The notes under the pieces were generated by a model, which was not told the origin of the DNA, ran no database searches, and saw only the letters and a list, made by a program, of their open reading frames with translations. Below, piece by piece: positions 2 through 64,000 of a stretch of 64,000 nt of DNA. The position numbers and the translations under genes are program-made. How positions within the stretch are numbered: position 1 is the stretch's first letter; each line of letters opens with the position of its first letter. Source of the DNA: Minisyncoccota bacterium (lineage in GTDB: Bacteria; Patescibacteriota; Minisyncoccia; Phycocordibacterales; UBA6065); contig DASTLR010000008.1 of NCBI GenBank assembly GCA_035714745.1, forward strand, positions 7,394-71,393. The letters run 5' to 3'.

Positions 2-1099
2 TTGGCCCTCGACAGTTACACGGGAAACATCGTCGACCTCTTTGAGGGCCAGAAAGACCTGGGAAAGGGCATTATCCGCACGGTAGGCGACCCTCACGAG
101 AGGCTATCCGAGGACGCCCTGCGTATCATGCGAGCTATACGTATAGCCGCAGAATTAGGGTTTTCCATCGAAAAGAACACCCTGGAAGCCTTGAGAACGC
201 ATGCACCGCTCCTGGGCCATATCGCCAAAGAGCGCATCCGCGACGAATTCACACGGATCATCATGTCGGATACTCCAATGGATGCGTTGAAGATGGCTCG
301 AGACATTGGCATCCTACGGTTTATAGCCCCAGAATTGGAGGAGGGGGTGGGCATGAAACAGCCCCAGGCGCACGCATACGATGTCTGGGAACACCTCCTC
401 CGAACGATACAGCACGCCGCCGACAAGAAATATAGCCTGGAAATTAGGCTCGCGGCGCTCTTTCACGATATCGGCAAACCCAGGACGCGTCGGATTTCAC
501 ATGAAACAGGGCAATATACGTTCTACGGCCACGAGGTTGTCGGCGCCAATATGACGAGAAAAATCCTCAAGGACCTGCGTTTCACCAATAAGGTCATAGA
601 CGAGGTGGTGAAACTGGTCCGCTGGCACATGTTCTTCTCGGATACCGAGCAGATAACCCTGTCTGCCGTCAGGCGCATGGTCGCGAACGTGGGCAAGGAT
701 CGCATCTGGGACCTAATGAACGTGCGCATCTGCGACAGGATCGGTACCGGCCGCCCAAAGGAAAACCCATACCGCCTGCGCAAATACCGGGCGATGGTCG
801 AGGAAGCCCTGCGCGATCCGATCTCCGTCGGCATGCTCAAGATCGACGGCAAAAAGATCATGGAGACCGCCGGCCTGAAGCCTAGCGCAAAGATCGGCCT
901 GATATTGAATGCTCTGATGGAAGAAGTGCTCGAAGAGCCACGAAAGAACACGGAGGAACACTTGATACAGAGAACACGGGAACTGCAAGAACTTCCCGAA
1001 ACAGAGCTGAAAAAGCTGGCAGCCATAGGCAAGGAAAAGAAGATGAAGGCCGAGGAAGAGGAGATAGCCAGGATCAGAGGCAGGCACGGAGTAGAGTAA
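2..1099 (+). CDS. cca: CCA-adding tRNA nucleotidyltransferase, 5'-truncated at window start (polymerase head domain, HD motif FHDIGKP, Lys/Glu-rich tail)
   Basis: ORF translation reads GDPHERL...RIMRAIRIAAELGF followed by an HD domain HD..FHDIGK. The ORF is open to the window edge. Confidence 0.75.
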   Translation: MALDSYTGNIVDLFEGQKDLGKGIIRTVGDPHERLSEDALRIMRAIRIAAELGFSIEKNTLEALRTHAPLLGHIAKERIRDEFTRIIMSDTPMDALKMARDIGILRFIAPELEEGVGMKQPQAHAYDVWEHLLRTIQHAADKKYSLEIRLAALFHDIGKPRTRRISHETGQYTFYGHEVVGANMTRKILKDLRFTNKVIDEVVKLVRWHMFFSDTEQITLSAVRRMVANVGKDRIWDLMNVRICDRIGTGRPKENPYRLRKYRAMVEEALRDPISVGMLKIDGKKIMETAGLKPSAKIGLILNALMEEVLEEPRKNTEEHLIQRTRELQELPETELKKLAAIGKEKKMKAEEEEIARIRGRHGVE

Positions 1100-1548
1100 A
1101 ACGGCTCTACATAGCCGCTTTTTGCTACTTAGGCAGATACAAATAACCGCCTGCACGGAATCCGTACAAGCGGCTCCCAAAGGATCGCTTGATGAGTGTA
1201 GGGCGCTTAACCGCAAGGTTAGCGCGCATAAAATTGTATGATGTCGCCATTTGAACGGCTAACGTCACTGCACTCGTCTGAGAGATCTTTTGGATTGCTG
1301 GGGAGCGAATAAGTCGCGTCACCCGAGATAAGATCGCTGGGCTACGGGACGCCCAGCAAACTAGATTCTTTCGGAAGAATCCACTTTGCTGAGCAGCGCG
1401 CAGACCGATCGCGACCGAAACCAAAACCTTTACCGACCGAACATATTTGGAAGAGCTCGTCCTGGAGATATTCTAGCAGTCATAAAGGACATGTAAAGGA
1501 CAATAGTGTGGATAACTTGTCCCTTATAAAGGACATAAAAAGATGGCT

Positions 1549-2346
1549 CTACAGAGCGATGTCCAGCAATACCGGACAATGGTCCGAGCCCATCACTTCC
1601 GGCAAGATATCTGCCTTCGTTATTTTCTTCTCTAAAGATTTCGAGGTCAGGACGTAGTCGATCCTCCAGCCGACGTTCCTCGCCCGCGCGTTGGCGAAAT
1701 GAGACCACCAGGTGTAGAAGCCGTTGCCTGTGTGAGATATGCGGAAGGTATCGACGAAGCCGGCGTCGACGAATCTCTGGAAGCCCTCGCGCTCCTCGTC
1801 GGTAAAGCCCTTCAGCCCGACGTTCTCCTTTGGCCGGGCTAGGTCGTCCGAGGTATGCGCCACGTTCAGGTCGCCGCAAAAGATGACCGGCTTTTTCTTC
1901 TCCAATTCTTTGCAGTAGGCGAGAAAGGCCGGGTCCCAGTGCTTGTGGCGCAAGGGAATGCGGGTCAGGTCGTCCTTGGCGTTGGGGGTATAGACCGTGA
2001 CGACGTAGAAATCCTTGTATTCAGCCGCTATGACGCGGCCTTCAGTACGCGGATCCCCATATTCGTCAGCGATTAGGCCATATTTCTGGCAAATCTTGTC
2101 CGGAATGCCGTTCATGACGGCCATAGGCTTCTCTCTAGTGAATATGGCCGTGCCGGAATAGCCCTTCTTTTGGGCGGAGTTCCAGTATTCCTCGTAATCT
2201 GGCAAGTCGATCACAGCCTGGCCTTGCTCGGCCTTGGTCTCTTGGAGGCAGAGGATATCGGGACGATATTTCTCTATAAATGGCAAGAAAAGGCCCTTTT
2301 TATGGACAGCGCGGATGCCATTGACGTTCCAGGAGATGATCCTCAT
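1549..2346 (-). CDS. xth: Exodeoxyribonuclease III (ExoIII/APE1 family)
   Basis: MRIISWNVNGIRA...ILCLQETK...SDHCPV, the classic ExoIII signature. Start taken at the internal Met of the 275 aa ORF. Confidence 0.85.
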   Translation of the reverse strand: MRIISWNVNGIRAVHKKGLFLPFIEKYRPDILCLQETKAEQGQAVIDLPDYEEYWNSAQKKGYSGTAIFTREKPMAVMNGIPDKICQKYGLIADEYGDPRTEGRVIAAEYKDFYVVTVYTPNAKDDLTRIPLRHKHWDPAFLAYCKELEKKKPVIFCGDLNVAHTSDDLARPKENVGLKGFTDEEREGFQRFVDAGFVDTFRISHTGNGFYTWWSHFANARARNVGWRIDYVLTSKSLEKKITKADILPEVMGSDHCPVLLDIAL

Positions 2347-25094: not shown

Positions 25095-26438
25095 ATGGAT
25101 ACTAAAAAACTTTGGGAGAACGTGTCGGGCGCCATCGAGCTCCAGGTGTCGAAAGCGACCTTTAATACCTGGTTCCGCGACACCCACATCCACAAGATCG
25201 ACGAAGGGGTAGTGTACGTGGCGGTCCCTAATCCCTTTGTAAAGGACTGGCTCTCTGAGAAGCTCCACAAGGTCATCCTGAAATACCTCCGAGACTTCGG
25301 CAGCGACGTCAGGTCCATAGAATACGTCATCTCCAAGACTCCCGAGCGAAAAGAGCCCGTAGAAGACGCCTCGAGGCCTTCGCCGGTCTTCGAGTTGCCT
25401 CTCCAGGAGCACTATATAAACAAAGAGGATAACCTCAATCCTAAATATACGTTCGATTCATTCGTGGTCGGGCCCTTTAACGAGCTTGCCCATGCAGCCG
25501 CACAGGCGGTCCTCAAGAGCCCCGGAGTGGCCTATAACCCTCTTTTCATCTATGGCGATACCGGGCGAGGCAAGACGCACATCATGCAGGCAGTCGGGAA
25601 CGCTATAAAAGCCAACTATCCCGATAAAAAGGTCTTCTACGTCACCTCCGAGCGCTTCGCGGTCGACTACATGAACTCGCTCCAGCTGGGAACCGCAAAT
25701 AAATTCAAAGAACGCTATAGGAAATACGATGTCCTTATCATGGACGACGTACAGTTCTTCGCCAGCAAGGAAAAGATCCAAGAGGAGTTCTTCCACCTTT
25801 TCAATACCCTCAAAGAGAACAACAAACAGCTGATCTGCTCGTCCGATCGCCATCCGAACAACATCCCTGAGCTCGAAGACCGCATAAAATCGCGCTTTAA
25901 TGCCGGCATGATCGTCGACGTGGCCGCCCCGGACCTGGAATCCAGGCTCTCCATCCTGAAGGCGAAGCTATCGAAGCAGGGCATCAGCCTGCCGGCAGAG
26001 CTCATCGAATATATAGCCACCACTATAGAAGGTAACGTCCGCGAGCTTGAAGGAGTCATCAACTCGATCGCCATGCAGACCCAGCTAAAGGGCAGGGAGC
26101 TGAATATCATCGAGATCAAGGGCATCCTCAAGAACAATGCGAAACCAAAGAAATCCGTCTCGGTAAAAGATGTGGTGAAGGTCGTGACCGACTTCTATAA
26201 CATCGAGGAGAACAACATTTACGAAAAGACCCGTAAAAAGGAGGTGGTCAAACCGCGCCAGGTCATCATGTACCTCTTGCGAGAGGACTTGAATATCTCG
26301 TACCCCTCCATCGGCGAGAAATTAGGAGGCCGCGACCATACCACCGTCATCCATTCGTGCGAAAAGATAAAGGAAGACATAAAATCCAACCAAACGCTGG
26401 TGCAGGAGCTGAATCATATACGATCGCTTATCCTCTAG
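25095..26438 (+). CDS. dnaA: Chromosomal replication initiator DnaA
   Basis: The DnaA N-terminus, an AAA+ domain (GDTGRGKTH), a sensor box and a C-terminal DnaA-box-binding domain. Confidence 0.95.
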
Positions 26439-26721
26439 GGCGCGGCATGCGTTGGGGAAAAAGCTGTGGAGAAGCGGGAAAGAGCGCGGGGATAACCTTG
26501 AAAATCGAAAGAGGGAAATGGGGACAAAAAAAGGATAACTTCCCGGAAAACGACGAAACAAAATTAGTTGTTCGAACGTAGTGGGGGATATCCACCGATG
26601 GGCCCGGAGCTATTTTTTAAAGGACCCTTTGCCAGAGCGCTGTAAAAAGTTATTCACATATCAACACCGGTAATAGTAATAGTAGTTTTCTTTTAAGAAT
26701 ATTAAGAGATATAGTAGGGAC
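26439..26721. promoter_or_regulatory. Candidate oriC: DnaA-box cluster plus an AT-rich unwinding element in the dnaA-dnaN spacer
   Basis: DnaA-box-like 9-mers GGGATAACC, AGGATAACT, ATATCCACC and TTATTCACA (consensus TTATCCACA). The 45-nt AT-rich tract taatagtaatagtagttttcttttaagaatattaag lies just before dnaN. Confidence 0.55.
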
Positions 26722-27822
26722 ATGAAAATCGAATGCATCAAAGACAAGCTGATCGACGGAATCTCCAAAGCTGATCGACTGACCGGCAAGAACCTCTCAT
26801 TGCCTATCCTGGCGTGCATCTATCTCAAGGCCGTAAAGAATACCTTGGTCATCCGCGCAACCAACCTGGATTGCGGCATAGAGGTCAGGATCCCCGCTAA
26901 AGTCGAAGCCGAGGGCGAGGTAGCCCTCCAGGGAGCGGTTCTAAACTCCCTTTTGGCCGGACTGCCTCGCGAAAAGAATATCGTTTTGCAGTCGAAAGAC
27001 GGAAATCTCCTGGTATCGACTTCGGCGAATACGACCCTTATAAAGACGTTCTCTCCGGACGAATTCCCTACGATCCCAAAGCTTGATACCCAGCGCACCA
27101 TCGAGATGAGCCCTAAAGTCCTCGTAAAAGGCTTTAAATCGGTCGTATACAGCGCTTCTCAATCGACGGTGAAGCCTGAGCTGTCGAGCGTCTACGTCTA
27201 CAAGGACGGGGCGGACCTGGTCTTCGTCTCGACCGATTCGTTCCGCCTGGCCGAAAAGAGGATAAAAGTGAAGGAGGATATGGATTTTCCTTCAGTCATC
27301 ATTCCTGGCAAGAATGTGAACGACATAATCAGGACCCTGGAGAGCTCTACCGAAGACGTCAGAGTGCTCTTTGATAAGAACCAGATCGCTTTCGAGGGCA
27401 AGGACGTCTACCTGATGTCCCGCGTCATCGACGCGACGTTCCCGGATTACAAGCAGATCATCCCAAAGGTTTTTGTCACCGAGGTAGTGGTCCTCAAGCA
27501 GGACTTCGTGGATTCGCTCAAGACCTCGCACGTGTTCTCGGATAAATTCAATCAGGTCAACGTGAAGGCCCTGCCTTCCAAGAAGTCGTTCATCATCTCG
27601 ACCAAGAACAGCGATATCGGGGAATATACGAATACCATCGATTCCAGTGTCACCGGGCAGGATGTCGAGATCAATTTCAACCATAAGTATCTTTCGGATT
27701 GCTTCCAGTCTATCGACGCCGATAGCCTCTCTATCTCGATCAGCGGCGCCAACAAGCCATTGGTCATGAGGGGGGTTTCCGACAAGTCCTTCACCTATCT
27801 GGTGATGCCTATGAATAGGTAA
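26722..27822 (+). CDS. dnaN: DNA polymerase III beta sliding clamp
   Basis: 366 aa with the three-domain beta-clamp pattern, downstream of dnaA. Confidence 0.9.
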   Translation: MKIECIKDKLIDGISKADRLTGKNLSLPILACIYLKAVKNTLVIRATNLDCGIEVRIPAKVEAEGEVALQGAVLNSLLAGLPREKNIVLQSKDGNLLVSTSANTTLIKTFSPDEFPTIPKLDTQRTIEMSPKVLVKGFKSVVYSASQSTVKPELSSVYVYKDGADLVFVSTDSFRLAEKRIKVKEDMDFPSVIIPGKNVNDIIRTLESSTEDVRVLFDKNQIAFEGKDVYLMSRVIDATFPDYKQIIPKVFVTEVVVLKQDFVDSLKTSHVFSDKFNQVNVKALPSKKSFIISTKNSDIGEYTNTIDSSVTGQDVEINFNHKYLSDCFQSIDADSLSISISGANKPLVMRGVSDKSFTYLVMPMNR

Positions 27823-42243: not shown

Positions 42244-42316
42244 CCGCCCATAGCTCAGTCGGTAGAGCAGCTCCCTTTTAAGGAGAGGGTCCCAGGTTCG
42301 ATTCCTGGTGGGCGGA
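42244..42316 (+). tRNA. tRNA-Lys (anticodon UUU)
   Basis: Cloverleaf folded by hand: acceptor CCGCCCA/TGGGCGG, D arm GCTC-AGTCGGTA-GAGC, anticodon loop CUUUUAA, T loop TTCGATT. No encoded CCA. Confidence 0.8.
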
Positions 42317-42329
42317 CTAAGTGTTCCCT

Positions 42330-53897: not shown

Positions 53898-55490
53898 CCT
53901 TAAGTCTGTTATTCCGATAGTCTCTCGGAAAGCAGGACTCTTTTCTGCAAAAGCCTTTTCCATTGGGAAAGGTTTTTGCTTGTTATTGAGGCAAAGCGTA
54001 CCAGTGGCAATCAACGCCTCCATAATTGGGCTAGGGACAGCTTTAGCGATCTTGCGGTCAGATACCTCAAATCTCTCCCAAAATATGCTCAAGTACGTCC
54101 TTTTAAGCTCTGGAGAAGCCTGTTGGTAAGCCTCGCCTAGGTTTCGAGCAAGAAGTATTACCTTCTGAATTACATCAACTTTGATGTTCTTATTGGCATC
54201 GAGCTTGGCGAGTTCGCTTCCACAAGAAACTATTATCTCCCTTTGTCTTTCTTTGATTCGAGTGAAGTCGTTATCATCAAGTACGCCAGAGATAAGCTTT
54301 TCCTCAGCGAGCTGGAGTTTTGATTCGGCGGCAGACTTAGTCGCCAGAATCTTTCGCTTCTCACGTTCCGTATCCTGCTTTTTCAGTGAATAGATGAACT
54401 TGACCCTCTCAAGCAGACGCTCAATGAACTTCTCAGAGAACTGAATTCCTCGAAAGTGTTCGACTACCTGATCTTCGAGGTCTTTTACGTTAACTCCTCG
54501 ATCGTTATCTGGAATAACGAATGGTTTCTGTTTATTCGTTGCATAAGGACGATAGTAGCTTTTATCCTTTTTCTTCTCATGGTTCTCGCCTATGAATCTC
54601 AAACCGCTTATAGCTGAGAACACATAGCCACGAAGAAGGAAATCATATTTTCGCCTCCGGCAGACACCATGACCATTATTCAATCGAACTTGTCGGCATC
54701 TTTCAAAGACTTCCTGAGATGTGAGAGGCGTGTGTTTACCCATTTTTCTCATTTCACCCCAGACCATTTCTCCATGGTAAAAAGGGTTTGCAATAATCTT
54801 AAACATATTCGCCAGACCGAGCTTTCCTCCCGTGTGTGATGTAAGTCCTTTCTTGAAAATCCATTCTCGCAATTCGAGCATTGGATGGTTACCCGTAGCG
54901 TACTTTCGGAAAAGTTCTGTAACAACCGGACCTTTTATTGGATCAACGACGATAATGCGTTTATCGGGATTATTTTCTTCGCCGACATTGAGATAACCAA
55001 GCGTAGCTCGCGTAGGCCACCAGCCGTCATTAAACCGCTGTTGCATGCTCTTCTTGGTCTTACGAGACGTTATCTGTGATTGAAGCTGATTAACGCCTGC
55101 AATGATCGTATCCATGAAGTTTCCCTCTGGAGTATCTTCAATTCCTGGCTGGGAGATAGAAACGAGCGTCGCAGAGTATTTCTTCAGAAGTGCCTTTATG
55201 GTGGTGTGATCGTTCACGTTGCGGGCAAGCCTGTCGGTATCGAGTACGAAGACCGCCCTGATATCTTTCTCTTGCACACGAACGAGCATATCCTGAAGAG
55301 CGGGACGATTCATTGTTGTAGCTGACTTACCAGCATCTACGAAGACCCCATTGTCCGTCAGTTCGTATTTACCGCTTTCTGTAATTGTTTTCTTACAGAG
55401 ATCCTCCTGTGTAGCAAGCGAATAACGCCCGCCCTTTGCCTGCTCCTCTGTGGAGACACGGCAATATATAACTGCTTTATCTTTGGTCAT
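53889..55490 (-). CDS. Large serine recombinase (resolvase/invertase N-terminal domain, recombinase domain and zinc ribbon)
   Basis: AVIYCRVSTEEQ with the catalytic Ser, resolvase domain motifs and a long C-terminal recombinase region. Its 3' end overlaps the tRNA-His 3' end by about 9 nt. Confidence 0.85.
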   Translation of the reverse strand: MTKDKAVIYCRVSTEEQAKGGRYSLATQEDLCKKTITESGKYELTDNGVFVDAGKSATTMNRPALQDMLVRVQEKDIRAVFVLDTDRLARNVNDHTTIKALLKKYSATLVSISQPGIEDTPEGNFMDTIIAGVNQLQSQITSRKTKKSMQQRFNDGWWPTRATLGYLNVGEENNPDKRIIVVDPIKGPVVTELFRKYATGNHPMLELREWIFKKGLTSHTGGKLGLANMFKIIANPFYHGEMVWGEMRKMGKHTPLTSQEVFERCRQVRLNNGHGVCRRRKYDFLLRGYVFSAISGLRFIGENHEKKKDKSYYRPYATNKQKPFVIPDNDRGVNVKDLEDQVVEHFRGIQFSEKFIERLLERVKFIYSLKKQDTEREKRKILATKSAAESKLQLAEEKLISGVLDDNDFTRIKERQREIIVSCGSELAKLDANKNIKVDVIQKVILLARNLGEAYQQASPELKRTYLSIFWERFEVSDRKIAKAVPSPIMEALIATGTLCLNNKQKPFPMEKAFAEKSPAFRETIGITDLRGA

Positions 55491-55987
55491 TGTTTATAGA
55501 TGAACTCCATTGGGACGAATCCCTTCCGTGAAGTGAATTGCCCGTCGAGTATTCTGATCTCTCGTACTCCCAATGAAGAATTGCTAAGTACCAACACTTT
55601 CGTTCCCGCCTTAACAAAATAGGCTTCATTGTTGCCGATAAGCTCGATCAGTCCATCTGAATCGTTAGCGATTGCAGACTTTGAGTATTTATCAAATGCT
55701 TCCTTGGTTGAAGGAACCATGACTTCGTCTTTTCCTTCGATTCTGAGATAACCCTCTTCACCCACGCTTACTCGAGTAGAAGTTTGAGGAGTGGAGGTTA
55801 CTGCACGCTCACTTACATTGTTAGATGCCTTAGCGAGAGATATGGTTATAAATAAAAAGAAGATCAGTGCGACGACAGCAAGAGGATGCCTACGTGCCCA
55901 TGATCTTAAATCTGCCTTACAATTCGGACATCGTTTCGCTTTCTTAGGGATATCCGTCTGACACTCCTTACATTTTTTTGTTTCCAC
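55487..55987 (-). CDS. Hypothetical zinc-ribbon membrane protein, translationally coupled to the recombinase
   Basis: N-terminal CKECQ..CPNC zinc ribbon, a TM helix and an extracytoplasmic domain. The stop overlaps the recombinase start (ATGA). Confidence 0.4.
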   Translation of the reverse strand: METKKCKECQTDIPKKAKRCPNCKADLRSWARRHPLAVVALIFFLFITISLAKASNNVSERAVTSTPQTSTRVSVGEEGYLRIEGKDEVMVPSTKEAFDKYSKSAIANDSDGLIELIGNNEAYFVKAGTKVLVLSNSSLGVREIRILDGQFTSRKGFVPMEFIYKQ

Positions 55988-56256
55988 GTGATTAGAAATA
56001 AACGATTAATCCCGTGGAAAGCTCCCACACAAAAAACCTGCCACAGGTAGGAACCGAAGTCCCTCGTGAAGGTTTCCCCGCACGGCCAGTTAGACAACCC
56101 TATGACAGGCTCTTTATGTCTAACTGGACTTATAGCCATGCTCTGGAGAAAACTCCAGAGGTTAGGCTCATGAACGCTATTTAGTTGTAAGGTAATTATG
56201 CTCTTTTTCATCCTTTTTGCCAAAATGACTTTGAAACGCTGACGCCTATACGTTTT

Positions 56257-56472
56257 TTAGTTGTCGGCTATAGGCGGTTTAGTCGCTTCTGACTGAGAGT
56301 CGCCAGTTTCCTTTTTGACGTTATCCACCAAGACCGCCCGTCTTTCTCTCATGTATCTCTCAAAAATGCTGTAAACCAGTTGATTAATGGACACCTTTTC
56401 ACAAAGAGCATCAATTTTGAGAAATGAATGCTGTTCGCGGGTAACTTTTATGTGTTTGGTGAACTTGAACAT
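56257..56472 (-). CDS. Hypothetical small protein (71 aa)
   Basis: ORF in the island followed by a hairpin. No motif recognised. Confidence 0.3.
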   Translation of the reverse strand: MFKFTKHIKVTREQHSFLKIDALCEKVSINQLVYSIFERYMRERRAVLVDNVKKETGDSQSEATKPPIADN

Positions 56473-56842
56473 GTAATTAAGTTGTTAACGCTATAGGGTA
56501 GGCGGAGCCCATATCCCTCGTCGGTAAATAATTGAAAGGTGTTACTCAGATTTCTCTCTGCACCTTTTGTAGAAAGACTTAAAGTGAATGGCGGTCTTCA
56601 CCCGAAGCTTCTCGGTTTCCCCGATGGCTTTCTTTAACGCCACACCTTCTACTTCATTCATGTGGCGGGAATCGCGAACCCTATAGGTATAGGCATCGCC
56701 CTGTATCGCGGCACTTTTTTAACGACGCACACCGCTCTACCCCTCACGTCGGAACTGAAAAGAGCCCTAATTTAGAAGGGCAGACCAGTACCCCCTAAAT
56801 CAGGGCTCGTTTCAGAGCTTAATTACTGGTCTGTCCCAAATA

Positions 56843-56981
56843 TTACTTATTGCCTTTCAATTCAGCCTCAATGAGCTCGATTGCCTCCTGGAGAAGAAGA
56901 TCAGCAACTCGGCGAGCCAAAGTAACCTCTGGGTCTTTTACCCAAGTAGGCTCTTCTATTCGCTTATCCTGCTTCTTTGCC
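56843..56981 (-). CDS. Hypothetical small protein (46 aa) followed by a strong hairpin terminator
   Basis: My hand translation gives MAKKQDKRIEEPTWVKDPEVTLARRVADLLLQEAIELIEAELKGNK. It is followed by nested inverted repeats at 56761-56837. Below the ORF-track size cutoff. Confidence 0.3.
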
Positions 56982-57059
56982 ATAATTTATTATTTGCAGG
57001 GCGATTATAAAAAAGCAGAGCAAGTTCATTGCTCCGCTTAAAGGGGGTGGTTAAGAGGG

Positions 57060-57752
57060 TTATAGTTTTCTACTCTTTATTTTGGCCATTATTTTTCTTG
57101 CCTGCGAGAGAGACACTCTCAAATGTCCGGCCATTTTTTCATCACCGCAATCAGGATTTGCCTTCAAAAACTCCTTGGCTTCCCATTCGAGGTTTTTTGT
57201 TTTTTCTTCTTTCGGTTTAACTTTTTTTGAGAGTGGATGCTTCGATGAAATTGAGTTCTTAAGACTCCTGTCGATTTCTGACCAATTGTCCTCAATGTAT
57301 TTAATGAGCTCAGGTTTGCTAGCCCCAGGTTCGACGTAGATTTCTGCGTAAGCGAAATTCTCGATGTCATCACCAGCATTTTTTATTTTATGAGAAACTC
57401 CCAAGGATGTATTCGAAATCCCTCCGAACAGGGTTTTTTCTACTATTGCCGCTACGACCAAGCCGTTATCAAAATTAAATTTTTTTGATACCGAATCATA
57501 CAACTCTGATTGTGCTTCCAGGAAAATCCTCTGAGTTTCTGGTTGGCGTATGGTATGACCTGCCAGTTTCATACCTCGCGTCAGTTTTATTTGTTCGATG
57601 TCGGAGAGCCATTTCCGAAACTCTTGAACAGTTTTAACCTCGTTTCTAAAAGGCAAAAAAGCTACCTTAAGTGCGTCTATGTCCTCATCCAGGTCGATTT
57701 TGAGCATCAATTTATCTACCCACTCTTCTAGTCTGTTGGCTGGTCTCTCCAT
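57060..57752 (-). CDS. Hypothetical protein with a possible C-terminal helix-turn-helix
   Basis: 230 aa. The C-terminal segment EKMAGHLRVSLSQARKIMAKIK resembles an HTH. Confidence 0.4.
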   Translation of the reverse strand: MERPANRLEEWVDKLMLKIDLDEDIDALKVAFLPFRNEVKTVQEFRKWLSDIEQIKLTRGMKLAGHTIRQPETQRIFLEAQSELYDSVSKKFNFDNGLVVAAIVEKTLFGGISNTSLGVSHKIKNAGDDIENFAYAEIYVEPGASKPELIKYIEDNWSEIDRSLKNSISSKHPLSKKVKPKEEKTKNLEWEAKEFLKANPDCGDEKMAGHLRVSLSQARKIMAKIKSRKL

Positions 57753-57805
57753 AGCTTAATCTTATGTCATTTTGGACGTGCATAAAATGACAAAAGGAAT
57801 AGTAT

Positions 57806-58942
57806 GTGGGTATGCCAGATATTCCCAAACAGTATTTTCTATACTATTTCCCTTACCTCACAATGAGAGATGTCGAGGAGATAGATTTTGGATTTATCAA
57901 GATTTGGAACTTTGATAAGAAGAAGGATGCTTATATCTCTGACCCTGCTCTTAAGGCAAAAATTACACAGATTCTTGCTAACTACCAATCCCAGTTTTAT
58001 CCAGTTAGAGGTATTGGAATAGCTTCTATTGGTACTAATGATTTTAGGAAATTTACACCTGAAGAGGCGGCGGATCTTCATACTGCAAAATACATTCTTT
58101 TCATTTCCGCTCTTGCATATAACAACCTCCATACTGCAAATGTAAATATCGGACACGCTATGTTTAGTTCGGAAAATTTCGAGAGCATGATATTTAGCAT
58201 GGTCTTAGACAGTGAGTACATGTCTGAACCTGGAGGATTCGTCATAAATATGCTTCATGGAGGTATTGAGATAAGTAAGAATCTCCAAAAGACACCCTCT
58301 TACATATTAAATCCGTCTCGCCTGAATTTAGATGTGGATTTGTTTAATACACTCATCAAACTAAGGAAGCGTAGGCCAAAATTCTTTAAAAGATTAATAT
58401 CGGCAATCGAAGTTTTCTATGAAAGCTATTACAATTCGCCTCAAGTCAGTGAAAAGGCACGTATCTTGCTCCTTACAAGTGCTTTTGAGATGCTTTTACA
58501 GTCTGAACCTGGGGCAGGCAGAGAAAAGACAAAAAACTTTATCGCTTTGCATGCTAACGTTCCCGAAGATCGAAAATATTCTTATTACTCCGAGAGAAGA
58601 GGTGGTGTAGTCAGGGAGAGCGGAACCCGAAAGGAAATATGGGCTGATAGGTTTTTTAGTCTTCGAAATCATATTGCTCACGGAGATATCGTTCCTAAGA
58701 CAGAATTTCTTTATAAGTCACAAAGGCACTTCGATATTGCCCCGCTATTCTTTGTCTTTACTCTTAAAAAGAAAATAGACCTGTATTTAAGGAGAGATAT
58801 CTTTGGTGACGAAATTGAGTGGAAGAAGTGGACAGATGAAAATACAATCCCTATTACGGAGTATGAGGGGTTTGCGTACAATGCAACTAAAGGGAAATTG
58901 AGAAAACTTTTTAATAAACTAAGAAAGAGGAAACGCCCATGA
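57806..58942 (+). CDS. HEPN-motif protein (Rx4H), putative abortive-infection or RNase-type defence protein
   Basis: LRNHIAHGD contains the R-x4-H HEPN catalytic motif in the C-terminal third. 378 aa with a basic tail. Confidence 0.45.
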   Translation: MGMPDIPKQYFLYYFPYLTMRDVEEIDFGFIKIWNFDKKKDAYISDPALKAKITQILANYQSQFYPVRGIGIASIGTNDFRKFTPEEAADLHTAKYILFISALAYNNLHTANVNIGHAMFSSENFESMIFSMVLDSEYMSEPGGFVINMLHGGIEISKNLQKTPSYILNPSRLNLDVDLFNTLIKLRKRRPKFFKRLISAIEVFYESYYNSPQVSEKARILLLTSAFEMLLQSEPGAGREKTKNFIALHANVPEDRKYSYYSERRGGVVRESGTRKEIWADRFFSLRNHIAHGDIVPKTEFLYKSQRHFDIAPLFFVFTLKKKIDLYLRRDIFGDEIEWKKWTDENTIPITEYEGFAYNATKGKLRKLFNKLRKRKRP

Positions 58943-59658
58943 AAAACCTACCCAAAGTAAAAAACAATTCCCAGACCGATCCCTTGGAGTCGGTTGAGTT
59001 ATCTGGAAAGCAAATAAAAGATGTCATTGAGTCCTCCGGAGTAAATCTAGTCGCCAGTTTTATTCCTGGACTTGGCAAGTTTCTTGAATGTATAGACTAT
59101 GCAAACCAAAAAATAAGAGAAGAGAAACTGAATAATGTATTAAAGATTTTCATATCTCATTTCGATTCATTGGATGAGGCTCTCGCTCAAATTAAGAAAC
59201 TCGTCAGCAATCGATCTGGAATTATTTTGTTTCAAAAAATAATACAGATCGTAGACAACGGGTCTTCTGATGATGAATGGTTAAACATACTAGCAAACAT
59301 ACTGAAAAACATAGCGGAGGAAGATATTACTAAACACTTTGATGAAAGGAGTTATTTTCTCGCACAAATTGATCGCCTAACACCACAGGCCTTGATTATT
59401 ATTAGTAAATACGACCTCTGGATGCAGGCTCATATCCAAGATACAACCACTACTAGCGGACAAACAGCCTCTGGTAATTGGAGTGAGCAAGTTACTGGTT
59501 TTCTCAAAACAAAAATTGGAATTTCTGATGGTCAGACTGGAGCTAGGATCAATCATTCCTTCCGTGAACTGGAATCGGCGGGGATGATTAAATTGGAAGG
59601 ACACCAAATCAGGCTCACCCCTGTTGGTAACGAGATTCGCCGAATGATGAAAAAATAA
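58939..59658 (+). CDS. Hypothetical protein, overlapping partner of the HEPN gene
   Basis: The start overlaps the HEPN gene stop (ATGA). No motif recognised. Confidence 0.4.
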   Translation: MKNLPKVKNNSQTDPLESVELSGKQIKDVIESSGVNLVASFIPGLGKFLECIDYANQKIREEKLNNVLKIFISHFDSLDEALAQIKKLVSNRSGIILFQKIIQIVDNGSSDDEWLNILANILKNIAEEDITKHFDERSYFLAQIDRLTPQALIIISKYDLWMQAHIQDTTTTSGQTASGNWSEQVTGFLKTKIGISDGQTGARINHSFRELESAGMIKLEGHQIRLTPVGNEIRRMMKK

Positions 59659-59663
59659 ATTCA

Positions 59664-60437
59664 ATGAAAGAAGGAACTTGTAAATTATGTCTGGAATACA
59701 AAAAGTTATGCAAAGAATCTCATATAATTCCGAAGTCTTTATATAGACTTCTAGCTGGAGAAAATAATCAACTGATATATATCAACGAGGAGAAATCGAA
59801 ACCTAAATACAATAGCGAATACGAAGGCGGTATTTTGTGTGAGAATTGCGATAACAAAGTGATTGGGTTACTTGATGACTATGCGGCAAAATTCATCTAC
59901 GGCGAGTTTCCAAATAAAGGGACTTCGGGGACGGAATGGATAGAAGGGCGTGAGACTGTAATTCGAGAAAACGATCCGAGTTACGATTATTCGCGTTTTA
60001 AACTATTTCTGCTTTCTGTTTTATGGAGAGCTAGTATCTCTTCGAGACCTTTCTTTCAAAAACTGAAGCTTCCTTCCGCCATAGAAGAAGATTTGAGGCA
60101 AAGAATCCTTACGGGTAGCCCAGGACAACCAGACGAATATCCATGTTTCATACACTTGCCCCCATTAATCACTCAACCGGACGGAAGGCGTGGTTTTGAG
60201 ACGTTCTACATGCAAACTATGTCTCCAATTTATATGGATAGGGGTGAGCTGAAAATGTGTGAGTTCATCATTCAAGGTATGCACTATTACTTCATAATTG
60301 CTCGTCCTGCGAACATGAATGTTCTTCCTTCGGTTGATACAAACAGACTAACCATGGCTTTTAGTAAGCCTGAGGAACATACCCAAATTATTCAAACCAT
60401 ACTCGATTTTATGAAGGGGCATCCTAAACGGAAATGA
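59664..60437 (+). CDS. HNH-like nuclease domain protein (CxxC..ESHIIP..CxxC N-terminus)
   Basis: GTCKLCLEYKKLCKESHIIPKS ... CENCDNK resembles an HNH zinc-finger nuclease core. Confidence 0.4.
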   Translation: MKEGTCKLCLEYKKLCKESHIIPKSLYRLLAGENNQLIYINEEKSKPKYNSEYEGGILCENCDNKVIGLLDDYAAKFIYGEFPNKGTSGTEWIEGRETVIRENDPSYDYSRFKLFLLSVLWRASISSRPFFQKLKLPSAIEEDLRQRILTGSPGQPDEYPCFIHLPPLITQPDGRRGFETFYMQTMSPIYMDRGELKMCEFIIQGMHYYFIIARPANMNVLPSVDTNRLTMAFSKPEEHTQIIQTILDFMKGHPKRK

Positions 60438-60487
60438 AACTAATGCACATTTGTTGACTATACCCCTAGGGGGTATATACTTTCGAC

Positions 60488-60757
60488 ATGACAAAAAATC
60501 CATCGAAAACAAAATTATCTCGTCGTCTCAAAATCGTTGAGGGTCAAATCAGAGGCCTTCAAGAGATGATCGAAAAGGACGCGTATTGTATAGACGTCAT
60601 CACCCAAACCTCGGCCGTGAAGCAAGCTCTCTCGGGTATTGAGGACGCTCTTATGGAACATCACCTCTCTACCTGTGCTGTAGATCAGATGCAGGGCGGC
60701 AAGTCTGAGAAAACTAAGCAAGAAATCCTTAAGGTCTATAGGCTTAAGCGAAAATAA
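60488..60757 (+). CDS. csoR: CsoR/RcnR-family metal-sensing transcriptional repressor
   Basis: RLKIVEGQIRGLQEMIEKDAYCIDVITQ...H...C, the CsoR Cys-His-Cys signature. Lies directly upstream of copA. Confidence 0.8.
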   Translation: MTKNPSKTKLSRRLKIVEGQIRGLQEMIEKDAYCIDVITQTSAVKQALSGIEDALMEHHLSTCAVDQMQGGKSEKTKQEILKVYRLKRK

Positions 60758-60760
60758 TCT

Positions 60761-63052
60761 ATGTATACCCAAACCTACAAAGTAAAAGGAATGCATTGTG
60801 CCTCATGTGCAGGCATAATCGAAAAAACCTTCAAAAAAACGGAGGGTGTGAAATCTGCTGAGGTAAATTACGGAACTGAGACTGCAAAAGTCGCTTTTGA
60901 TACTTCTAAAGTAAATCCACACCGCCTTTCAGAGAAAATCGAGAAATTGGGGTACTCTCTCGTCGTGCCTTCCGCAGAGGATATGAATATGTCGTCATCT
61001 GAACACGCGGCTCACCTAGGTCTCAACCAATCTAAAAAAGAAAAGCTTATTGAGATAAAAGATATGCAAAGCAAGGTCTTTTCCGTCATCCCACTCGCAG
61101 TCTTTAGTATCTTCGTCATGGGATGGGATATTCTCGCTCAGTTCGGCGTTCTGCCCGAAATGAGTCGAACGATATATGAGTTCTTCCACCACCTACTCCC
61201 AATATTCGCGACATACACTCTTTTCGTAGTCGGCAAGCCGTACCTTATGGGCATGTTCCGTTTCTTCCGCTATGGCAAGGCGAACATGGACACGCTCATA
61301 GGCATAGGAACGTCAGTGGCTTTTCTCTATAGCTTTATTGTTACTGCATTTGAAGAATCTCTCGCTCCATATATTAACGTTGAGCATAATTATTACGACG
61401 TAACGATTGTCGTCATCACATTCATTGCTCTCGGTAAATACCTTGAAGCCCGTGCAAAGGTGAAAACAGGCGATGCAATCGAAAAGCTTGTTGGCCTTCA
61501 GGCAAAGACCGCTTTGGTTATAAGGGACGGCAAGGAGCAAGAGATCGCCGTATCGGATGTAAGGCATGGAGACCTCATCATCGTAAAGCCAGGTGCAAAG
61601 ATCCCTGTAGATGGAGTTGTAGTTGAGGGTGCTTCATTTATAGATGAATCAATGATCACGGGTGAACCAATGCCCGTCGAGAAGAAAGTAGGAGATTCTG
61701 TCGTGGCGGGTACCATAAACACTAATAGCACTTTTACATTCAAGGCTACAAAAGTCGGTTCTGAAACGCTTATTGCTCATATCATAAAAATGGTAGAGGA
61801 AGCTCAGGGCAGTAAAGCTCCCATTCAAGCCCTCGCAGATAAAATATCGGCTGTATTCGTCCCCATAGTCCTCGTAGTCGCTTTTGTTACCCTTGGAGTG
61901 TGGTTACTTGTTGGAACAAGCTCTTTTGGTTTCTCTCAGGCTCTCTCATACGGATTAACTTCATTTGTAGGCATACTTGTCATCGCTTGCCCATGTGCCC
62001 TCGGCCTTGCCACTCCCACCGCAATCATCGTCGGCGTAGGTAAAGGTGCTAAGGAGGGCATCCTCATTAAGGACGCCGCTACGCTCGAAAAGCTCCACAA
62101 AGTTGATACCATCGTCGTAGATAAGACGGGTACGATCACCAGAGGCAAACCAGAACTTACGAGCATACAGAACCACTCAAAGCTTCCTGACGATAAGATC
62201 ATTTCTATCCTTACTTCTCTCGAAAGCAAATCGGAGCATCCTATAGCTCACGCTGTCATTGAATATGCCAAGGCTAAGTCTATTAGTCTCGTACCTGTTG
62301 AAAAACCAGAGATCATCAAGGGTAAAGGAATCAAAGGGACTATCTCGGGTACAGAATATTTCGCAGGCAACACGAGGCTTCTTTCCGATCTCGGCCTTTC
62401 GATCGATACCCAAAAGCTCGAGGTTGATACGAAAGAAGGAAAGACGCCTGTCATACTCTCAACCAAGAGCGAAATTCTAGCTGTCGTCATGGTCGCAGAT
62501 GCCGTGAAGAACGAAGCAGTGGAAGCAGTTAAGAGCCTTCACAAGCTTGGTATCAAAATCGTTATGCTCACGGGCGATAATAAACATACCGCTCAAGCTA
62601 TCGCAAAAGAGGTCGGCATTGATGATGTGGTCGCTGAAGTGTTGCCAGACGACAAACTTAATAAGATCAAAGAACTTCAAGAAGCGGGTCATATCGTAGC
62701 TATGGCGGGAGACGGCGTTAATGACGCTCCTGCTCTCGCTCAGGCGGATGTCGGCATTGCTATGGGCACAGGAACCGATGTCGCTATAGAGACCGCAGGC
62801 ATTACGCTTCTTCATGGAGATATTTCAAAGCTTGTGAAAGCAATACGGCTCTCGAAGTTAACAATGCGAGGCATCAAGCAGAATCTTTTCTGGGCGTTTA
62901 TCTATAACGTAGTCGGCATTCCTCTCGCCGCAGGATTATTCTTCCCATTCTTCGGGTGGCTTCTCAGTCCCGTATTCGCAGGTCTCGCTATGGCGTTCTC
63001 AAGCGTTTCAGTCGTTGGAAATTCGCTTCGCCTTAAAGCTAAAAACTTATAA
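60761..63052 (+). CDS. copA: Copper-translocating P1B-type ATPase
   Basis: N-terminal heavy-metal-associated (HMA) domain GMHCASCA, a TM CPC motif (ACPCALG), DKTGT phosphorylation site and GDGVNDAP. Confidence 0.9.
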
Positions 63053-63055
63053 TCA

Positions 63056-64000
63056 TGAAAACATACACTTTCCACATCCAAGGAATGCACTGTAAAGCAT
63101 GTATAGCTCTTACCGAAAGTGAACTCGGCGATATTCAGGAGATCACGCACGCTAAAGCATCGCTTGATAATCACACAGTGACAATTTCTGGTGAATTTGG
63201 AGACAAAACTCCTGAAGAGATAGCGAACAGCCTTACGTCAGTTCTCAAACCACACGGCTACACACTTTCTGTCGAGAAACAGAATCATGTAGTTAATTGG
63301 TCGCAGTTTAAAGTAGCCCTCCCAATCGCGGCCGCATTTGTCGCCGTATTTATCATTCTCCAAAAGCTTGGAATAGTGAATCTCGTGACCACGTCGAATG
63401 TCGGATACGGGACGGCGTTTCTAATCGGTATGATTGCTTCAGTATCAACTTGCATGGCAGTCGTGGGTGGACTTGTTCTCTCCATGTCGGCCAACTATGC
63501 GAAAGAGAATGATAAAGTTCGCCCGCAAGTTCTTTTCCATATCGGCAGACTTGTATCATTCTTCGTGCTTGGTGGCGTAATTGGGGCTATCGGGTCAGCA
63601 TTTCAGCTTAACGGAACAGGTACATTCATTTTGAGTCTCCTTGTTGCGATAATCCTTTTGATCCTTGGCATAAACCTGCTTGATATATTCCCGTGGGCAA
63701 AGAAGCTTCAACCTTCGCTTCCAAGCTTTATAACGAATCATGTTCGAGGCTTGAAAAAAATAAACCACACACTTACACCCCTTCTTATCGGCGTTGCCAC
63801 CTTCTTCCTTCCATGTGGGTTCACTCAATCCATGCAAATATACTCGCTCACAACGGGTAGTTTCTGGACTGGAGCGATGACGATGTTTTTCTTTGCACTT
63901 GGAACGCTTCCTGTACTCGCGATTCTATCCTTTAGCTCGATGGGAATACACGACAAGGTGAAGTCGGGCATCTTCTTCAAATCGGCAGGTCTCATCGTAT
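63056..64000 (+). CDS. HMA-domain (GMHCKAC) protein fused to a multi-TM domain with paired TM cysteines (CcdA/TauE-like); 3'-truncated at the window end
   Basis: My hand translation from the ATG at 63056 gives MKTYTFHIQGMHCKACIALTE followed by six or more TM helices including FFLPCGF. No stop before the window end. Confidence 0.5.

What the first reader, a model, noticed from the sequence alone, without database searches (positions are those of the whole stretch)
1100..1548. 450-nt region between the convergent cca and xth genes containing a minus-strand promoter, a DnaA box presented in a hairpin loop, and four copies of an AAGGACA motif
Convergent genes normally leave only a terminator between them, yet 450 nt are left here. 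Near the xth end the sequence cataaaggacatgtaaaggacaatagtgtggataacttgtcccttataaaggacata holds three direct ATAAAGGACA repeats, one inverted copy, and a perfect DnaA box TGTGGATAA (1507-1515) sitting in the loop of a GGACAA/TTGTCC hairpin. On the minus strand a near-consensus promoter (TTTACA, 16 nt spacer, TAGAAT; -35 at 1492-1497 and -10 at 1470-1475) would drive a roughly 360-nt transcript running to the bidirectional terminator at about 1100-1128. This could be an unannotated non-coding RNA, an iteron-like or DnaA-titration element, or a regulatory site.
Basis: seen in the sequence. Interest (0 to 1): 0.5.

Follow-up and report, generated by a model that had tools for sequence, protein, structure and literature searches.

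The report
Conserved non-coding RNA gene beside cca
The 450-base gap between the xth and cca genes holds a previously uncatalogued non-coding RNA gene. Its promoter, which carries a perfect DnaA box and repeated 9-base sites, is conserved almost letter for letter across more than a hundred uncultured Paceibacteria (candidate phyla radiation), while the RNA itself evolves fast and its function is unknown.

Summary
Comparison with related genomes shows they form a real promoter, not an origin or iteron array.

Layout on the minus strand:
- 18-bp palindrome TGTCCTTTA/TAAGGGACA (1535-1518)
- DnaA box TTATCCACA (1515-1507)
- two direct TGTCCTTTA copies 11 bp apart (1502-1494 and 1491-1483); the first contains the -35 TTTACA
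- extended -10 TGcTAGAAT, with the start near 1463

The core AGTTATCCACA-N4-5-TGTCCTTTACA-N16-17-TAnnnT recurs in about 130 Paceibacteria loci. It almost always abuts the 3' end of cca, in either orientation.

The transcript is about 325 nt (1463 to about 1139). It begins with a boxA-like word, has a covariation-supported 3' domain, and ends in its own terminator (1175-1145). It matches no Rfam family, tRNA or tmRNA, and no ORF in it is conserved.

The replication origin is about 25 kb away, in the dnaA-dnaN spacer. The 9-mer is absent from the origins of six relatives.

Verdict: a new lineage-specific ncRNA family with a tightly regulated promoter, probably bound by DnaA and an unknown 9-mer-binding factor. 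The RNA's function is unknown. Interest is moderate.

The parts
1139..1463 (-). Predicted non-coding RNA, about 325 nt, from the inferred start near 1463 to the U-rich tail after the 1175-1145 hairpin. Read-through could extend it to about 1100.
   Evidence: Start inferred from the -10 position. Fold z-score is -5.1. The whole region aligns with L005-L008. No Rfam, tRNA or tmRNA match. The 99-aa ORF at 1125-1424 is not conserved.
1470..1478 (-). Extended -10 element TGcTAGAAT (hexamer at 1475-1470).
   Evidence: In related loci the hexamer varies as TAnnnT, at 16-17 nt spacing in 131 of 143 instances.
1492..1497 (-). -35 hexamer TTTACA, embedded in the 9-mer copy at 1494-1502.
   Evidence: TGTCCTTTACA is invariant in the Xth-selected relatives.
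1483..1491 (-). 9-mer TGTCCTTTA, spacer copy (-28..-20), 11 bp downstream of the -35 copy.
   Evidence: A direct copy at +10 to +12 is present in 80 of 141 non-redundant promoters; others carry an inverted copy at +17/+18.
1494..1502 (-). 9-mer TGTCCTTTA, the -35 copy (-39..-31).
1507..1515 (-). Perfect DnaA box TTATCCACA (-52..-44). The extended form AGTTATCCACA is conserved.
   Evidence: It is conserved in all Xth-selected loci that have cca next door. It lies 4-5 nt from the -35 9-mer in 118 of 141 promoters. The origins of this lineage use the same box.
1518..1535 (-). 18-bp palindrome made of two 9-mers, TGTCCTTTA (1535-1527) and TAAGGGACA (1526-1518), at -72..-55.
   Evidence: L008, L015 and L017 carry the perfect palindrome TGTCCTTTATAAAGGACA. 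An inverted copy immediately upstream of the DnaA box occurs in about 41 of 141 promoters, and further upstream in others.
1446..1456 (-). boxA-like word GCUCUUCCAAA at +8..+18 of the RNA. It is the window's variant of the family motif (U/A)GUUCUUU(G/C/A)AAAA.
   Evidence: GTTCTTT is the most enriched word in the RNAs, present in 68 of 92 against at most 10 in shuffles. Flanking consensus. The gamma-proteobacterial boxA consensus is GYTCTTTAANA (PMC5725501). The assignment is by resemblance only.
1343..1401 (-). Long near-perfect hairpin in the middle of the RNA.
   Evidence: It was picked up spuriously as a miRNA-like hairpin. L006 and L008 have a hairpin at the same place with different sequence.
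1178..1292 (-). 3' domain closed by a long-range helix (1292-1265 pairing with 1202-1178) that encloses smaller hairpins.
   Evidence: 87% of cells are paired against 33-45% in slid controls, 24 pairs change on both sides against 4-9, and 0 of 500 shuffles reach this. Coordinates.
1139..1175 (-). Intrinsic terminator of the RNA: a 14-bp hairpin GCCGC...GCGG followed by UUAUUUGU.
   Evidence: Every family member ends in a homologous AAGCCGCC...GGCGGUUUU hairpin.
1100..1119 (.). Second hairpin, serving as the cca terminator (plus strand) and a possible back-up terminator for the RNA.
   Evidence: plus strand, 1102-1117. It is conserved, with compensatory changes, in L005-L008 (helix 7).

Best explanation
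The gap holds a self-contained transcription unit for a structured, non-coding RNA of about 325 nt on the minus strand.

Shown or well supported by comparison:
- A sigma-70-type promoter (-35 TTTACA, 16-nt spacer, extended -10 TGcTAGAAT) is embedded in a nearly invariant module. From upstream to downstream this is a 9-mer palindrome, the DnaA box AGTTATCCACA at -52..-44, and two TGTCCTTTA copies 11 bp apart covering -39..-20.
- The RNA has a conserved fold in its 3' half and ends at its own intrinsic terminator.
- The unit always sits at the 3' end of cca and has been inverted in place in some lineages.

Inferred:
- DnaA binds the box and modulates initiation, which would tie expression to replication status.
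- An unidentified sequence-specific protein binds the 9-mers and gates the promoter. The geometry resembles tandem sites of winged-helix response regulators that overlap a -35.
- The same 9-mer arrangement precedes tRNA-Pro(UGG) in some relatives, so the RNA would belong to a small regulon.
- The 5' word GYUCUU(U/C) acts as a boxA, loading NusB/NusE so that the untranslated transcript escapes Rho.

The action of the mature RNA is not known. My best guess is a trans-acting regulatory RNA that uses exposed pyrimidine-rich segments.
For: Promoter:
- Matches 10 of 12 consensus positions, plus TG.
- The core is conserved in 27 of 27 Xth-selected loci where the cca end lies within 1.7 kb of xth, and is absent where cca is not nearby.
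- The -10 varies as TAnnnT at 16-17 nt spacing in 131 of 143 instances.

Linkage to cca:
- A metagenome scan with the 18-base pattern returned 120 loci.
- Of the 139 exact matches found in those loci and the Xth-selected genome loci together, 86 are convergent with cca, 17 follow cca in tandem, 27 are on contigs too short to tell, and about 7 are chance hits.

RNA:
- z = -5.1.
- In the window's subfamily the 3' domain is 87% paired against 33-45% in slid controls, with 24 pairs changed on both sides and 0 of 500 shuffles reaching this.
- In a second clade of 23 members, 21 of 27 pairs show compensatory changes.
- All members end in a terminator.
- No conserved ORF.

boxA-like word: GTTCTTT in 68 of 92 RNAs, compared with GYTCTTTAANA.

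DnaA box: the origins of this lineage use canonical TTATCCACA boxes.

Shared operator: 9-mer clusters lie upstream of tRNA-Pro in 13 of 49 cases, against 0 of 77 for tRNA-Arg and 0 of 91 for tRNA-Gly.
Against: - There is no expression data, so the start site and the 3' end are predictions.
- The RNA body diverges so fast that most members are BLAST singletons. A covariance model of one clade does not detect the window's RNA, so homology across clades rests on the promoter, synteny, the boxA-like word and the terminator.
- The window's own boxA-like word departs from the family motif at two positions. The motif is only slightly more accessible than the rest of the RNA (0.46 against 0.40).
- No rRNA leader from this lineage was available to calibrate its boxA.
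- The metagenome loci were selected by the promoter pattern, so its invariance there is partly circular. The unbiased evidence is the Xth-selected set.
- Binding by DnaA or by any 9-mer factor is untested.
Confidence: 0.75

Rival explanations
1. The selected element is primarily a chromosomal DNA site that binds DnaA and a partner protein. It could be a datA-like titration site, a DARS-like site, or a DnaA-box cluster of the Bacillus type. On this reading transcription and the RNA are secondary.
For: - The DNA module is far better conserved than the RNA body.
- The locus is origin-proximal, about 24 kb from dnaA.
- A second conserved element with DnaA boxes and 9-mers lies about 2.3 kb away, downstream of tRNA-Gly, in the source scaffold and in L009, L164 and L182.
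Against: - There is only one DnaA box.
- The -10 hexamer, its spacing, the boxA-like word, the terminator and the RNA helices are also under selection. A pure DNA site would not need these.
- The 9-mers sit at promoter-specific positions.
Confidence: 0.12
2. It is a replication origin or an iteron array.
For: A DnaA box sits next to short direct repeats.
Against: - dnaA (25095-26438) and dnaN lie 24 kb away.
- The dnaA-dnaN spacer carries several DnaA-box-like sites and an AT-rich unwinding region, both here and in six relatives.
- The cumulative GC skew turns at about 24-26 kb.
- The 9-mer is absent from the relatives' origins.
- The element is flipped relative to its neighbours in some genomes.
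Confidence: 0.02
3. It is a very divergent copy of a universal RNA, such as RNase P RNA, tmRNA, 6S or SRP RNA. This is plausible at first sight because of the tRNA-related neighbourhood and because rnpA is present in these genomes.
For: - The unit is adjacent to cca and to tRNA genes.
- It shares an operator with tRNA-Pro.
- The RNase P protein is encoded next to dnaA in relatives.
Against: - No Rfam match even at E up to 1-10, in the window or in three other clades. None at gathering score in 26 loci.
- ARAGORN finds no tmRNA.
- Length ranges from 150 to 460 nt. The only universally conserved words are the boxA-like motif and the terminator, whereas all those RNAs have invariant cores.
Confidence: 0.04
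4. The repeats are the terminator or 3' UTR of xth, or the gap encodes a small protein.
For: - The palindrome starts 13 nt after the xth stop codon.
- A 99-codon ORF exists at 1125-1424 on the minus strand.
Against: - In 17 or more loci the same module follows cca instead of xth.
- The palindrome has no U-tract.
- The ORF has no tblastn match even in L005-L008, whose DNA aligns throughout.
- Indels in the alignments are not multiples of three.
Confidence: 0.03

Closest known systems
Orphan lineage-specific structured ncRNA families of candidate phyla (for example LOOT RNA, RF03000) and other conserved bacterial ncRNAs of unknown function (raiA, OLE, ROOL)
   Same: - An intergenic, independently transcribed RNA with covariation-supported helices and a terminator.
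- Restricted to one bacterial lineage, with function unknown.
- A LOOT RNA lies in the same window at 56049-56168.
   Different: - No sequence or structure match to any of them.
- The RNA body is much less conserved than in those families.
- The promoter is the best conserved part.
rRNA-operon leader (nut-like boxB-boxA) and other boxA-bearing untranslated transcripts, such as CRISPR arrays (PMC7665894) and the suhB leader (PMC5725501)
   Same: - A GYUCUUU-type word lies close to the 5' end of an untranslated transcript.
- In many members it is preceded by a variable hairpin, matching the boxB-boxA order of rrn leaders.
- The expected role is protection from Rho.
   Different: - No rRNA or CRISPR array follows.
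- Position 8 is variable, and the window's copy has two departures.
- Some members have two or three tandem copies.
- NusB/NusE binding is untested.
DnaA-regulated promoters (dnaA, nrdAB and mioC in E. coli; sda, ywlC and others in B. subtilis; from general knowledge)
   Same: A consensus high-affinity DnaA box lies at a fixed position next to a sigma-70-type promoter, outside oriC.
   Different: - The product is a non-coding RNA.
- The box is flanked on both sides by sites for a second, unknown factor.
- No DnaA-controlled sRNA is known to me.
Pho-box and OmpR-family response-regulator promoters (from general knowledge)
   Same: Two direct repeats beginning TGTC, 11 bp apart, cover about -40 to -20 and overlap or replace the -35.
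   Different: - The repeat is TGTCCTTTA, not CTGTCAT.
- Many promoters use an inverted second copy and an upstream palindrome.
- The binding protein is unidentified and no phosphate-related genes are involved.

Membership tests
Any Rfam 15 RNA family (including RNase P, tmRNA, 6S, SRP, LOOT and riboswitches) | A covariance-model score at or near the family's gathering threshold | tested here: not met
   The only hit in window 900-1800 at E up to 1 is a spurious miRNA hairpin at 28.9 bits against a threshold of 63. Nothing is found in the equivalent region of relatives.
tRNA / tmRNA | A cloverleaf or tRNA-like domain detectable by ARAGORN | tested here: not met
   None in 1100-1548 or in the RNA regions of 26 relatives.
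Sigma-70-type promoter | -35 and -10 hexamers at 16-18 nt spacing, with the -10 positions T1, A2 and T6 conserved across relatives | tested here: met
   Matches 10 of 12 positions plus TG. TAnnnT at 16-17 nt spacing in 131 of 143 related promoters.
Sigma-70-type promoter | Transcription actually starts downstream of the -10 | not testable with these tools
   No RNA-seq or 5'-end data are available.
Structured ncRNA | Base pairs maintained by compensatory changes beyond controls | tested here: met
   Window subfamily: 24 of 53 pairs change on both sides against 4-9 in slid controls, and 0 of 500 shuffles reach this. That subfamily has only 5 sequences. Second clade: 21 of 27 pairs.
Structured ncRNA | Not protein-coding | tested here: met
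   The longest ORF is not conserved, and indels are not in multiples of three.
boxA (NusB/NusE antitermination element) | Sequence GYTCTTTAANA or the lineage's own rrn boxA | tested here: inconclusive
   The family motif (T/A)GTTCTTT(G/C/A)AAAA matches positions 1-7 exactly. The window has GCTCTTCCAAA. No rRNA leader of this lineage was available for calibration.
boxA (NusB/NusE antitermination element) | Single-stranded, near the 5' end of an untranslated transcript | tested here: inconclusive
   The median position is about +46. The unpaired probability is 0.46 against a transcript mean of 0.40, p = 0.009.
boxA (NusB/NusE antitermination element) | Binds NusB/NusE and suppresses Rho termination | not testable with these tools
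   Requires a binding or antitermination assay.
DnaA box | 9-mer TTATCCACA | tested here: met
   Exact match at 1507-1515. It is conserved with its AG flank in relatives. The same consensus is used in the dnaA-dnaN origins of the lineage.
DnaA box | Bound by DnaA with a regulatory effect | not testable with these tools
   Requires ChIP, EMSA or a reporter assay.
oriC / iteron origin | A cluster of several initiator sites next to an AT-rich unwinding element, at the GC-skew turning point | tested here: not met
   There is one box and no AT-rich unwinding region here. The features are found instead at 26.44-26.72 kb, and the skew minimum is at 24-26 kb.

The most novel reading that the evidence does not exclude
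The unit is a replication- or cell-cycle-gated riboregulator specific to Paceibacteria. DnaA and a dedicated 9-mer-binding regulator would jointly control an RNA that is antiterminated by Nus factors. Together with tRNA-Pro(UGG), and possibly with cca (which carries 9-mers inside its 5' coding region in many relatives), the RNA would couple chromosome replication status to tRNA maturation or translation capacity in these minimal-genome episymbionts. A variant reading is that its tandem boxA-like words make it a NusB/NusE decoy that tunes rRNA antitermination.
Probability: 0.1. Interest if true: 0.75.

Novelty: new member of a known kind. Interest (0 to 1): 0.5.

Why it matters
Candidate-phyla bacteria have tiny genomes, very few known regulators and almost no experimentally studied RNAs.

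- **New RNA family.** An RNA gene kept at the same place in well over a hundred species, with a promoter conserved almost base for base, is likely to be important for these organisms. It is missed by standard annotation.
- **Entry point for regulation.** The promoter gives a ready-made handle for finding a transcription factor regulon (the 9-mer TGTCCTTTA) and for testing DnaA as a transcription factor in this lineage.
- **Annotation.** The RNA could be added to Rfam. Origin-prediction tools should not be misled by the isolated DnaA box.

Tried and rejected
1. **Known RNA families.** I ran Rfam at permissive E-values on the window and on three other clades, and ARAGORN for tmRNA. Nothing was found.
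2. **Origin of replication.** Rejected. dnaA-dnaN, the skew minimum and the DnaA-box/AT-rich region are at about 25-27 kb.
3. **9-mer as an oriC component.** The window's origin has a one-mismatch copy, TAAAGGACC, near AGTTATTCACA. I fetched the origins of six relatives through DnaA homologues. None has the 9-mer, so that copy is probably chance.
4. **9-mer as a general stable-RNA promoter element.** Rejected. It occurs upstream of 0 of 77 tRNA-Arg and 0 of 91 tRNA-Gly genes, and only upstream of tRNA-Pro (13 of 49).
5. **One covariance model for the whole family.** A model of the best-sampled clade finds 23 members but not the window's RNA. The family is too divergent for a single model.
6. 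**Small protein.** Rejected.
7. **Literature.** Searches for the motif strings, for CPR ncRNAs and for LOOT gave nothing relevant. Arnvig et al. 2008 on boxA diversity is not held.
8. **rRNA leaders for boxA calibration.** I looked for rRNA genes in all fetched loci and found none.

Full report
**Source and setting.** The window is identical to part of a 306-kb metagenomic scaffold (ENA ERZ28572737, BAND20-1 scaffold_10). Its DnaA protein is named in NCBI as from 'Candidatus Paceibacterota', and the window contains a LOOT RNA. cca (tRNA nucleotidyltransferase) runs off the left edge of the window and ends at 1099 on the plus strand. xth (exonuclease III) is on the minus strand, 2346-1549. The interval 1100-1548 is therefore a real 449-bp gap between convergent genes.

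**Observation check.** On the minus strand, 5' to 3', the order is:
- TGTCCTTTA (1535-1527)
- TAAGGGACA (1526-1518); together with the previous copy this forms an 18-bp imperfect palindrome
- AG, then TTATCCACA (1515-1507)
- CTAT, then TGTCCTTTA (1502-1494)
- CA, then TGTCCTTTA (1491-1483)
- TGACTGC, then TAGAAT (1475-1470)

The three exact 9-mers are the only exact copies in 64 kb, and the one-mismatch count is well above shuffles (19 against 7.2). The DnaA box is the only exact one in the window, but alone it is not statistically remarkable. The promoter scan reports TTTACA, a 16-nt spacer and TAGAAT, matching 10 of 12 positions with a TG extension. It also reports a 14-bp terminator hairpin on the minus strand at 1175-1145 and the cca terminator at 1102-1117.

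**Comparative evidence for a promoter.** A genome scan with the Xth protein gave 80 loci from Patescibacteria assemblies.
- The whole 450 nt aligns with the four closest relatives, L005-L008.
- A 58-nt core is found much more widely: AGTTATCCACA, N4-6, TGTCCTTTACA, N16-17, TAnnnT.
- In this unbiased set the core is present in all 27 loci where the cca end lies within 1.7 kb of xth. It is absent from loci without cca nearby, and also from six loci where cca lies 2-3.4 kb from xth.
- The 139 exact instances found in those loci and the genome loci together split as follows: 86 have cca converging on the unit, with the cca end a median of 445 nt downstream; 17 have the unit directly after cca on the same strand, facing xth; 27 are on contigs too short to judge; about 7 are chance matches in unrelated DNA.

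The unit is thus tied to the 3' end of cca and has been inverted in place during evolution. That marks it as an autonomous module rather than the tail of xth. The -10 hexamer varies among species in the way a real -10 does (TATAAT, TATACT, TACAAT, TAGAAT and others), with T1, A2 and T6 kept and 16-17 nt spacing in 131 of 143 instances analysed.

**The RNA.** Downstream of the promoter every locus has 150-460 nt (median about 280) of non-coding sequence. This ends in a GC-rich hairpin of the form AAGCCGCC...GGCGGUUUU.

Sequence conservation of the body is low, and most members are singletons by BLAST. Structure is conserved where it can be tested:
- For the window's subfamily (window plus L005-L008, a plain MAFFT alignment), the RNAalifold structure of the 3' half has 87% of cells paired against 33-45% when partners are slid. 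24 pairs change on both sides against 4-9, and no shuffle out of 500 reaches these values. In window coordinates the closing helix pairs 1292-1265 with 1202-1178. Only five sequences support this.
- A second, better-sampled clade gave a covariance model that finds 23 members. 21 of its 27 pairs carry compensatory changes. It also has a conserved unpaired loop, CACCA...ACGCCCCUGCUCCUUUU, inside the terminal hairpin.
- That model does not detect the window's RNA. Homology across clades therefore rests on the promoter, synteny, the 5' motif and the terminator.
- The predicted window transcript (1463 to 1139) folds with z = -5.1.
- The 99-codon ORF in the gap has no match even in the relatives whose DNA aligns throughout.
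- No Rfam family, tRNA or tmRNA matches in any clade.

**The 5' motif.** The most over-represented word in the RNAs is GTTCTTT, present in 68 of 92 against at most 10 in shuffles.
- It lies a median of about 46 nt from the start. It is often preceded by a variable hairpin, and it is followed by an A-rich stretch: (U/A)GUUCUUU(G/C/A)AAAA.
- This resembles boxA, the NusB/NusE loading site of rRNA leaders. The gamma-proteobacterial consensus is GYTCTTTAANA (PMC5725501). In rrn leaders a dispensable boxB hairpin precedes boxA (PMC8632103). boxA also protects other untranslated transcripts, such as CRISPR arrays, from Rho (PMC7665894).
- The window's version is GCUCUUCCAAA at 1456-1446, with no preceding hairpin.
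- The motif is only modestly more accessible than the rest of the RNA, and I could not obtain an rRNA leader from this lineage. The boxA assignment is therefore an inference, with about even odds.

**The DnaA box and the origin.**
- dnaA is at 25095-26438, followed by dnaN.
- The spacer between them has several DnaA-box-like sites, including AGTTATTCACA, and an AT-rich stretch.
- The cumulative GC skew has its minimum at 24-26 kb.
- Six relatives fetched through DnaA homologues show the same rpmH/rnpA-yidC-dnaA-oriC-dnaN layout, with canonical TTATCCACA boxes.

The lineage's DnaA therefore recognises the canonical box. The origin is about 25 kb from the finding, and the box at 1507-1515 is an extra-origin site at -52..-44 of a promoter. 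None of the relatives' origins contains the 9-mer. The 9-mer-binding factor is therefore not an origin component.

**The 9-mer.**
- Copies occupy fixed positions. One overlaps the -35 in all promoters. A second is 11 bp downstream in direct orientation (80 of 141) or 17-18 bp downstream in inverted orientation. An inverted copy lies upstream of the DnaA box, immediately adjacent in about 41 of 141 and further away in others.
- Two direct TGTC-initiated repeats 11 bp apart covering -39..-20 recall response-regulator sites such as Pho boxes. This is from general knowledge and was not tested.
- The same arrangement (an inverted copy followed by one or two direct copies overlapping a -35) lies upstream of tRNA-Pro(UGG) in 13 of 49 cases. 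It never lies upstream of tRNA-Arg (0 of 77) or tRNA-Gly (0 of 91).
- Pairs of exact 9-mers also occur inside the 5' part of the cca coding sequence in many relatives, read as Ile-Lys-Asp codons. A further conserved element with two DnaA-box-like sites and 9-mers lies downstream of tRNA-Gly(GCC), including in the source scaffold at L001 9110-9190. I did not resolve whether those are functional.

**Interpretation.** The best-supported reading is an independent, tightly regulated ncRNA gene.
- I put about 0.75 on 'promoter plus non-coding RNA'.
- I put about 0.5 each on DnaA control and on the boxA function.
- I put no more than about 0.3 on the guess that the RNA acts in trans through its pyrimidine-rich unpaired segments.
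- The main rival is that the DNA module itself is the functional entity, as a DnaA-handling site, and the RNA is incidental. It is weakened by the selection visible on the -10, the terminator and the RNA helices.
- The origin or iteron, known-RNA, xth-terminator and small-protein readings are effectively excluded.

**Novelty and interest.** The RNA family is absent from Rfam 15, and I found no paper describing it or the motif. The kind of thing, a lineage-specific bacterial ncRNA with a sigma-70 promoter and an intrinsic terminator, is familiar.

The unusual features are:
- a promoter far better conserved than its product
- a consensus DnaA box bracketed by sites for a second factor
- a probable boxA on a short ncRNA
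- strict linkage to cca

Interest is moderate (0.5). It would be considerably higher if the DnaA-gated riboregulator reading were shown.

Noticed in passing
window 25095-27822: dnaA (25095-26438) and dnaN (26722-27822). The probable replication origin is in their 283-bp spacer, which has several DnaA-box-like sites (for example AGTTATTCACA at 26648-26658) and an AT-rich stretch. The cumulative GC-skew minimum is at 24-26 kb. The same layout is seen in six relatives.
   Followed up: yes
window 42244-42317 (+): ARAGORN calls this a 'tRNA-Stop' with anticodon UUA. The anticodon loop reads CUUUUAA, which is the canonical loop of tRNA-Lys(UUU). The suppressor call is almost certainly a register artefact.
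   Followed up: partly
window 56049-56168 (-): LOOT RNA (RF03000) at 84 bits, a candidate-phyla ncRNA of unknown function.
   Followed up: no
window 54000-64000: G+C drops from about 0.60 to 0.40-0.45 over the last 10 kb of the window. This may be a horizontally acquired or otherwise atypical segment, and it contains the LOOT RNA.
   Followed up: no
L001 9100-9190 (source scaffold, beyond the left edge of the window); also L009 7920-7990, L182, L164: A second conserved non-coding element downstream of tRNA-Gly(GCC). It has two DnaA-box-like sites (GGGGATAAC, TGTGGATTA) followed by an inverted and a direct 9-mer-like site about 28 nt apart, with a conserved GGCTTAA(A/C)AT between them. Its role is unknown.
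   Followed up: partly
L021 8076-8095, L077 7712-7739, L157, L160, L172, L173, L189, L191, L204 and others: The TGTCCTTTA operator arrangement precedes tRNA-Pro(UGG) in 13 of 49 loci, with leaders of 40-200 nt. It is never found before tRNA-Arg or tRNA-Gly. This suggests a small regulon shared with the ncRNA.
   Followed up: partly
cca coding sequence in relatives (for example L009 6401-6448, L010 6466-6513, L055 2853-2902); L001 8396-8404: Two or three exact copies of the 9-mer lie inside the 5' part of cca, read as Ile-Lys-Asp codons, in many genomes. I did not determine whether this reflects DNA-level selection (internal operator sites) or only the protein motif.
   Followed up: no
window 493-508 and 14-29 (inside cca); L001 9276-9290; intergenic regions near cca in L009, L018, L037, L132: parS-like palindromes (TTTCACGTGAAA-type; the window copies have 3 mismatches to TGTTTCACGTGAAACA). 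They are consistent with an origin-proximal location.
   Followed up: no
L205-L210, about 1870-2240: rnpA (the RNase P protein) lies upstream of dnaA in all six relatives. These organisms should therefore have an RNase P RNA gene somewhere. It was not seen in any sequence fetched here.
   Followed up: no
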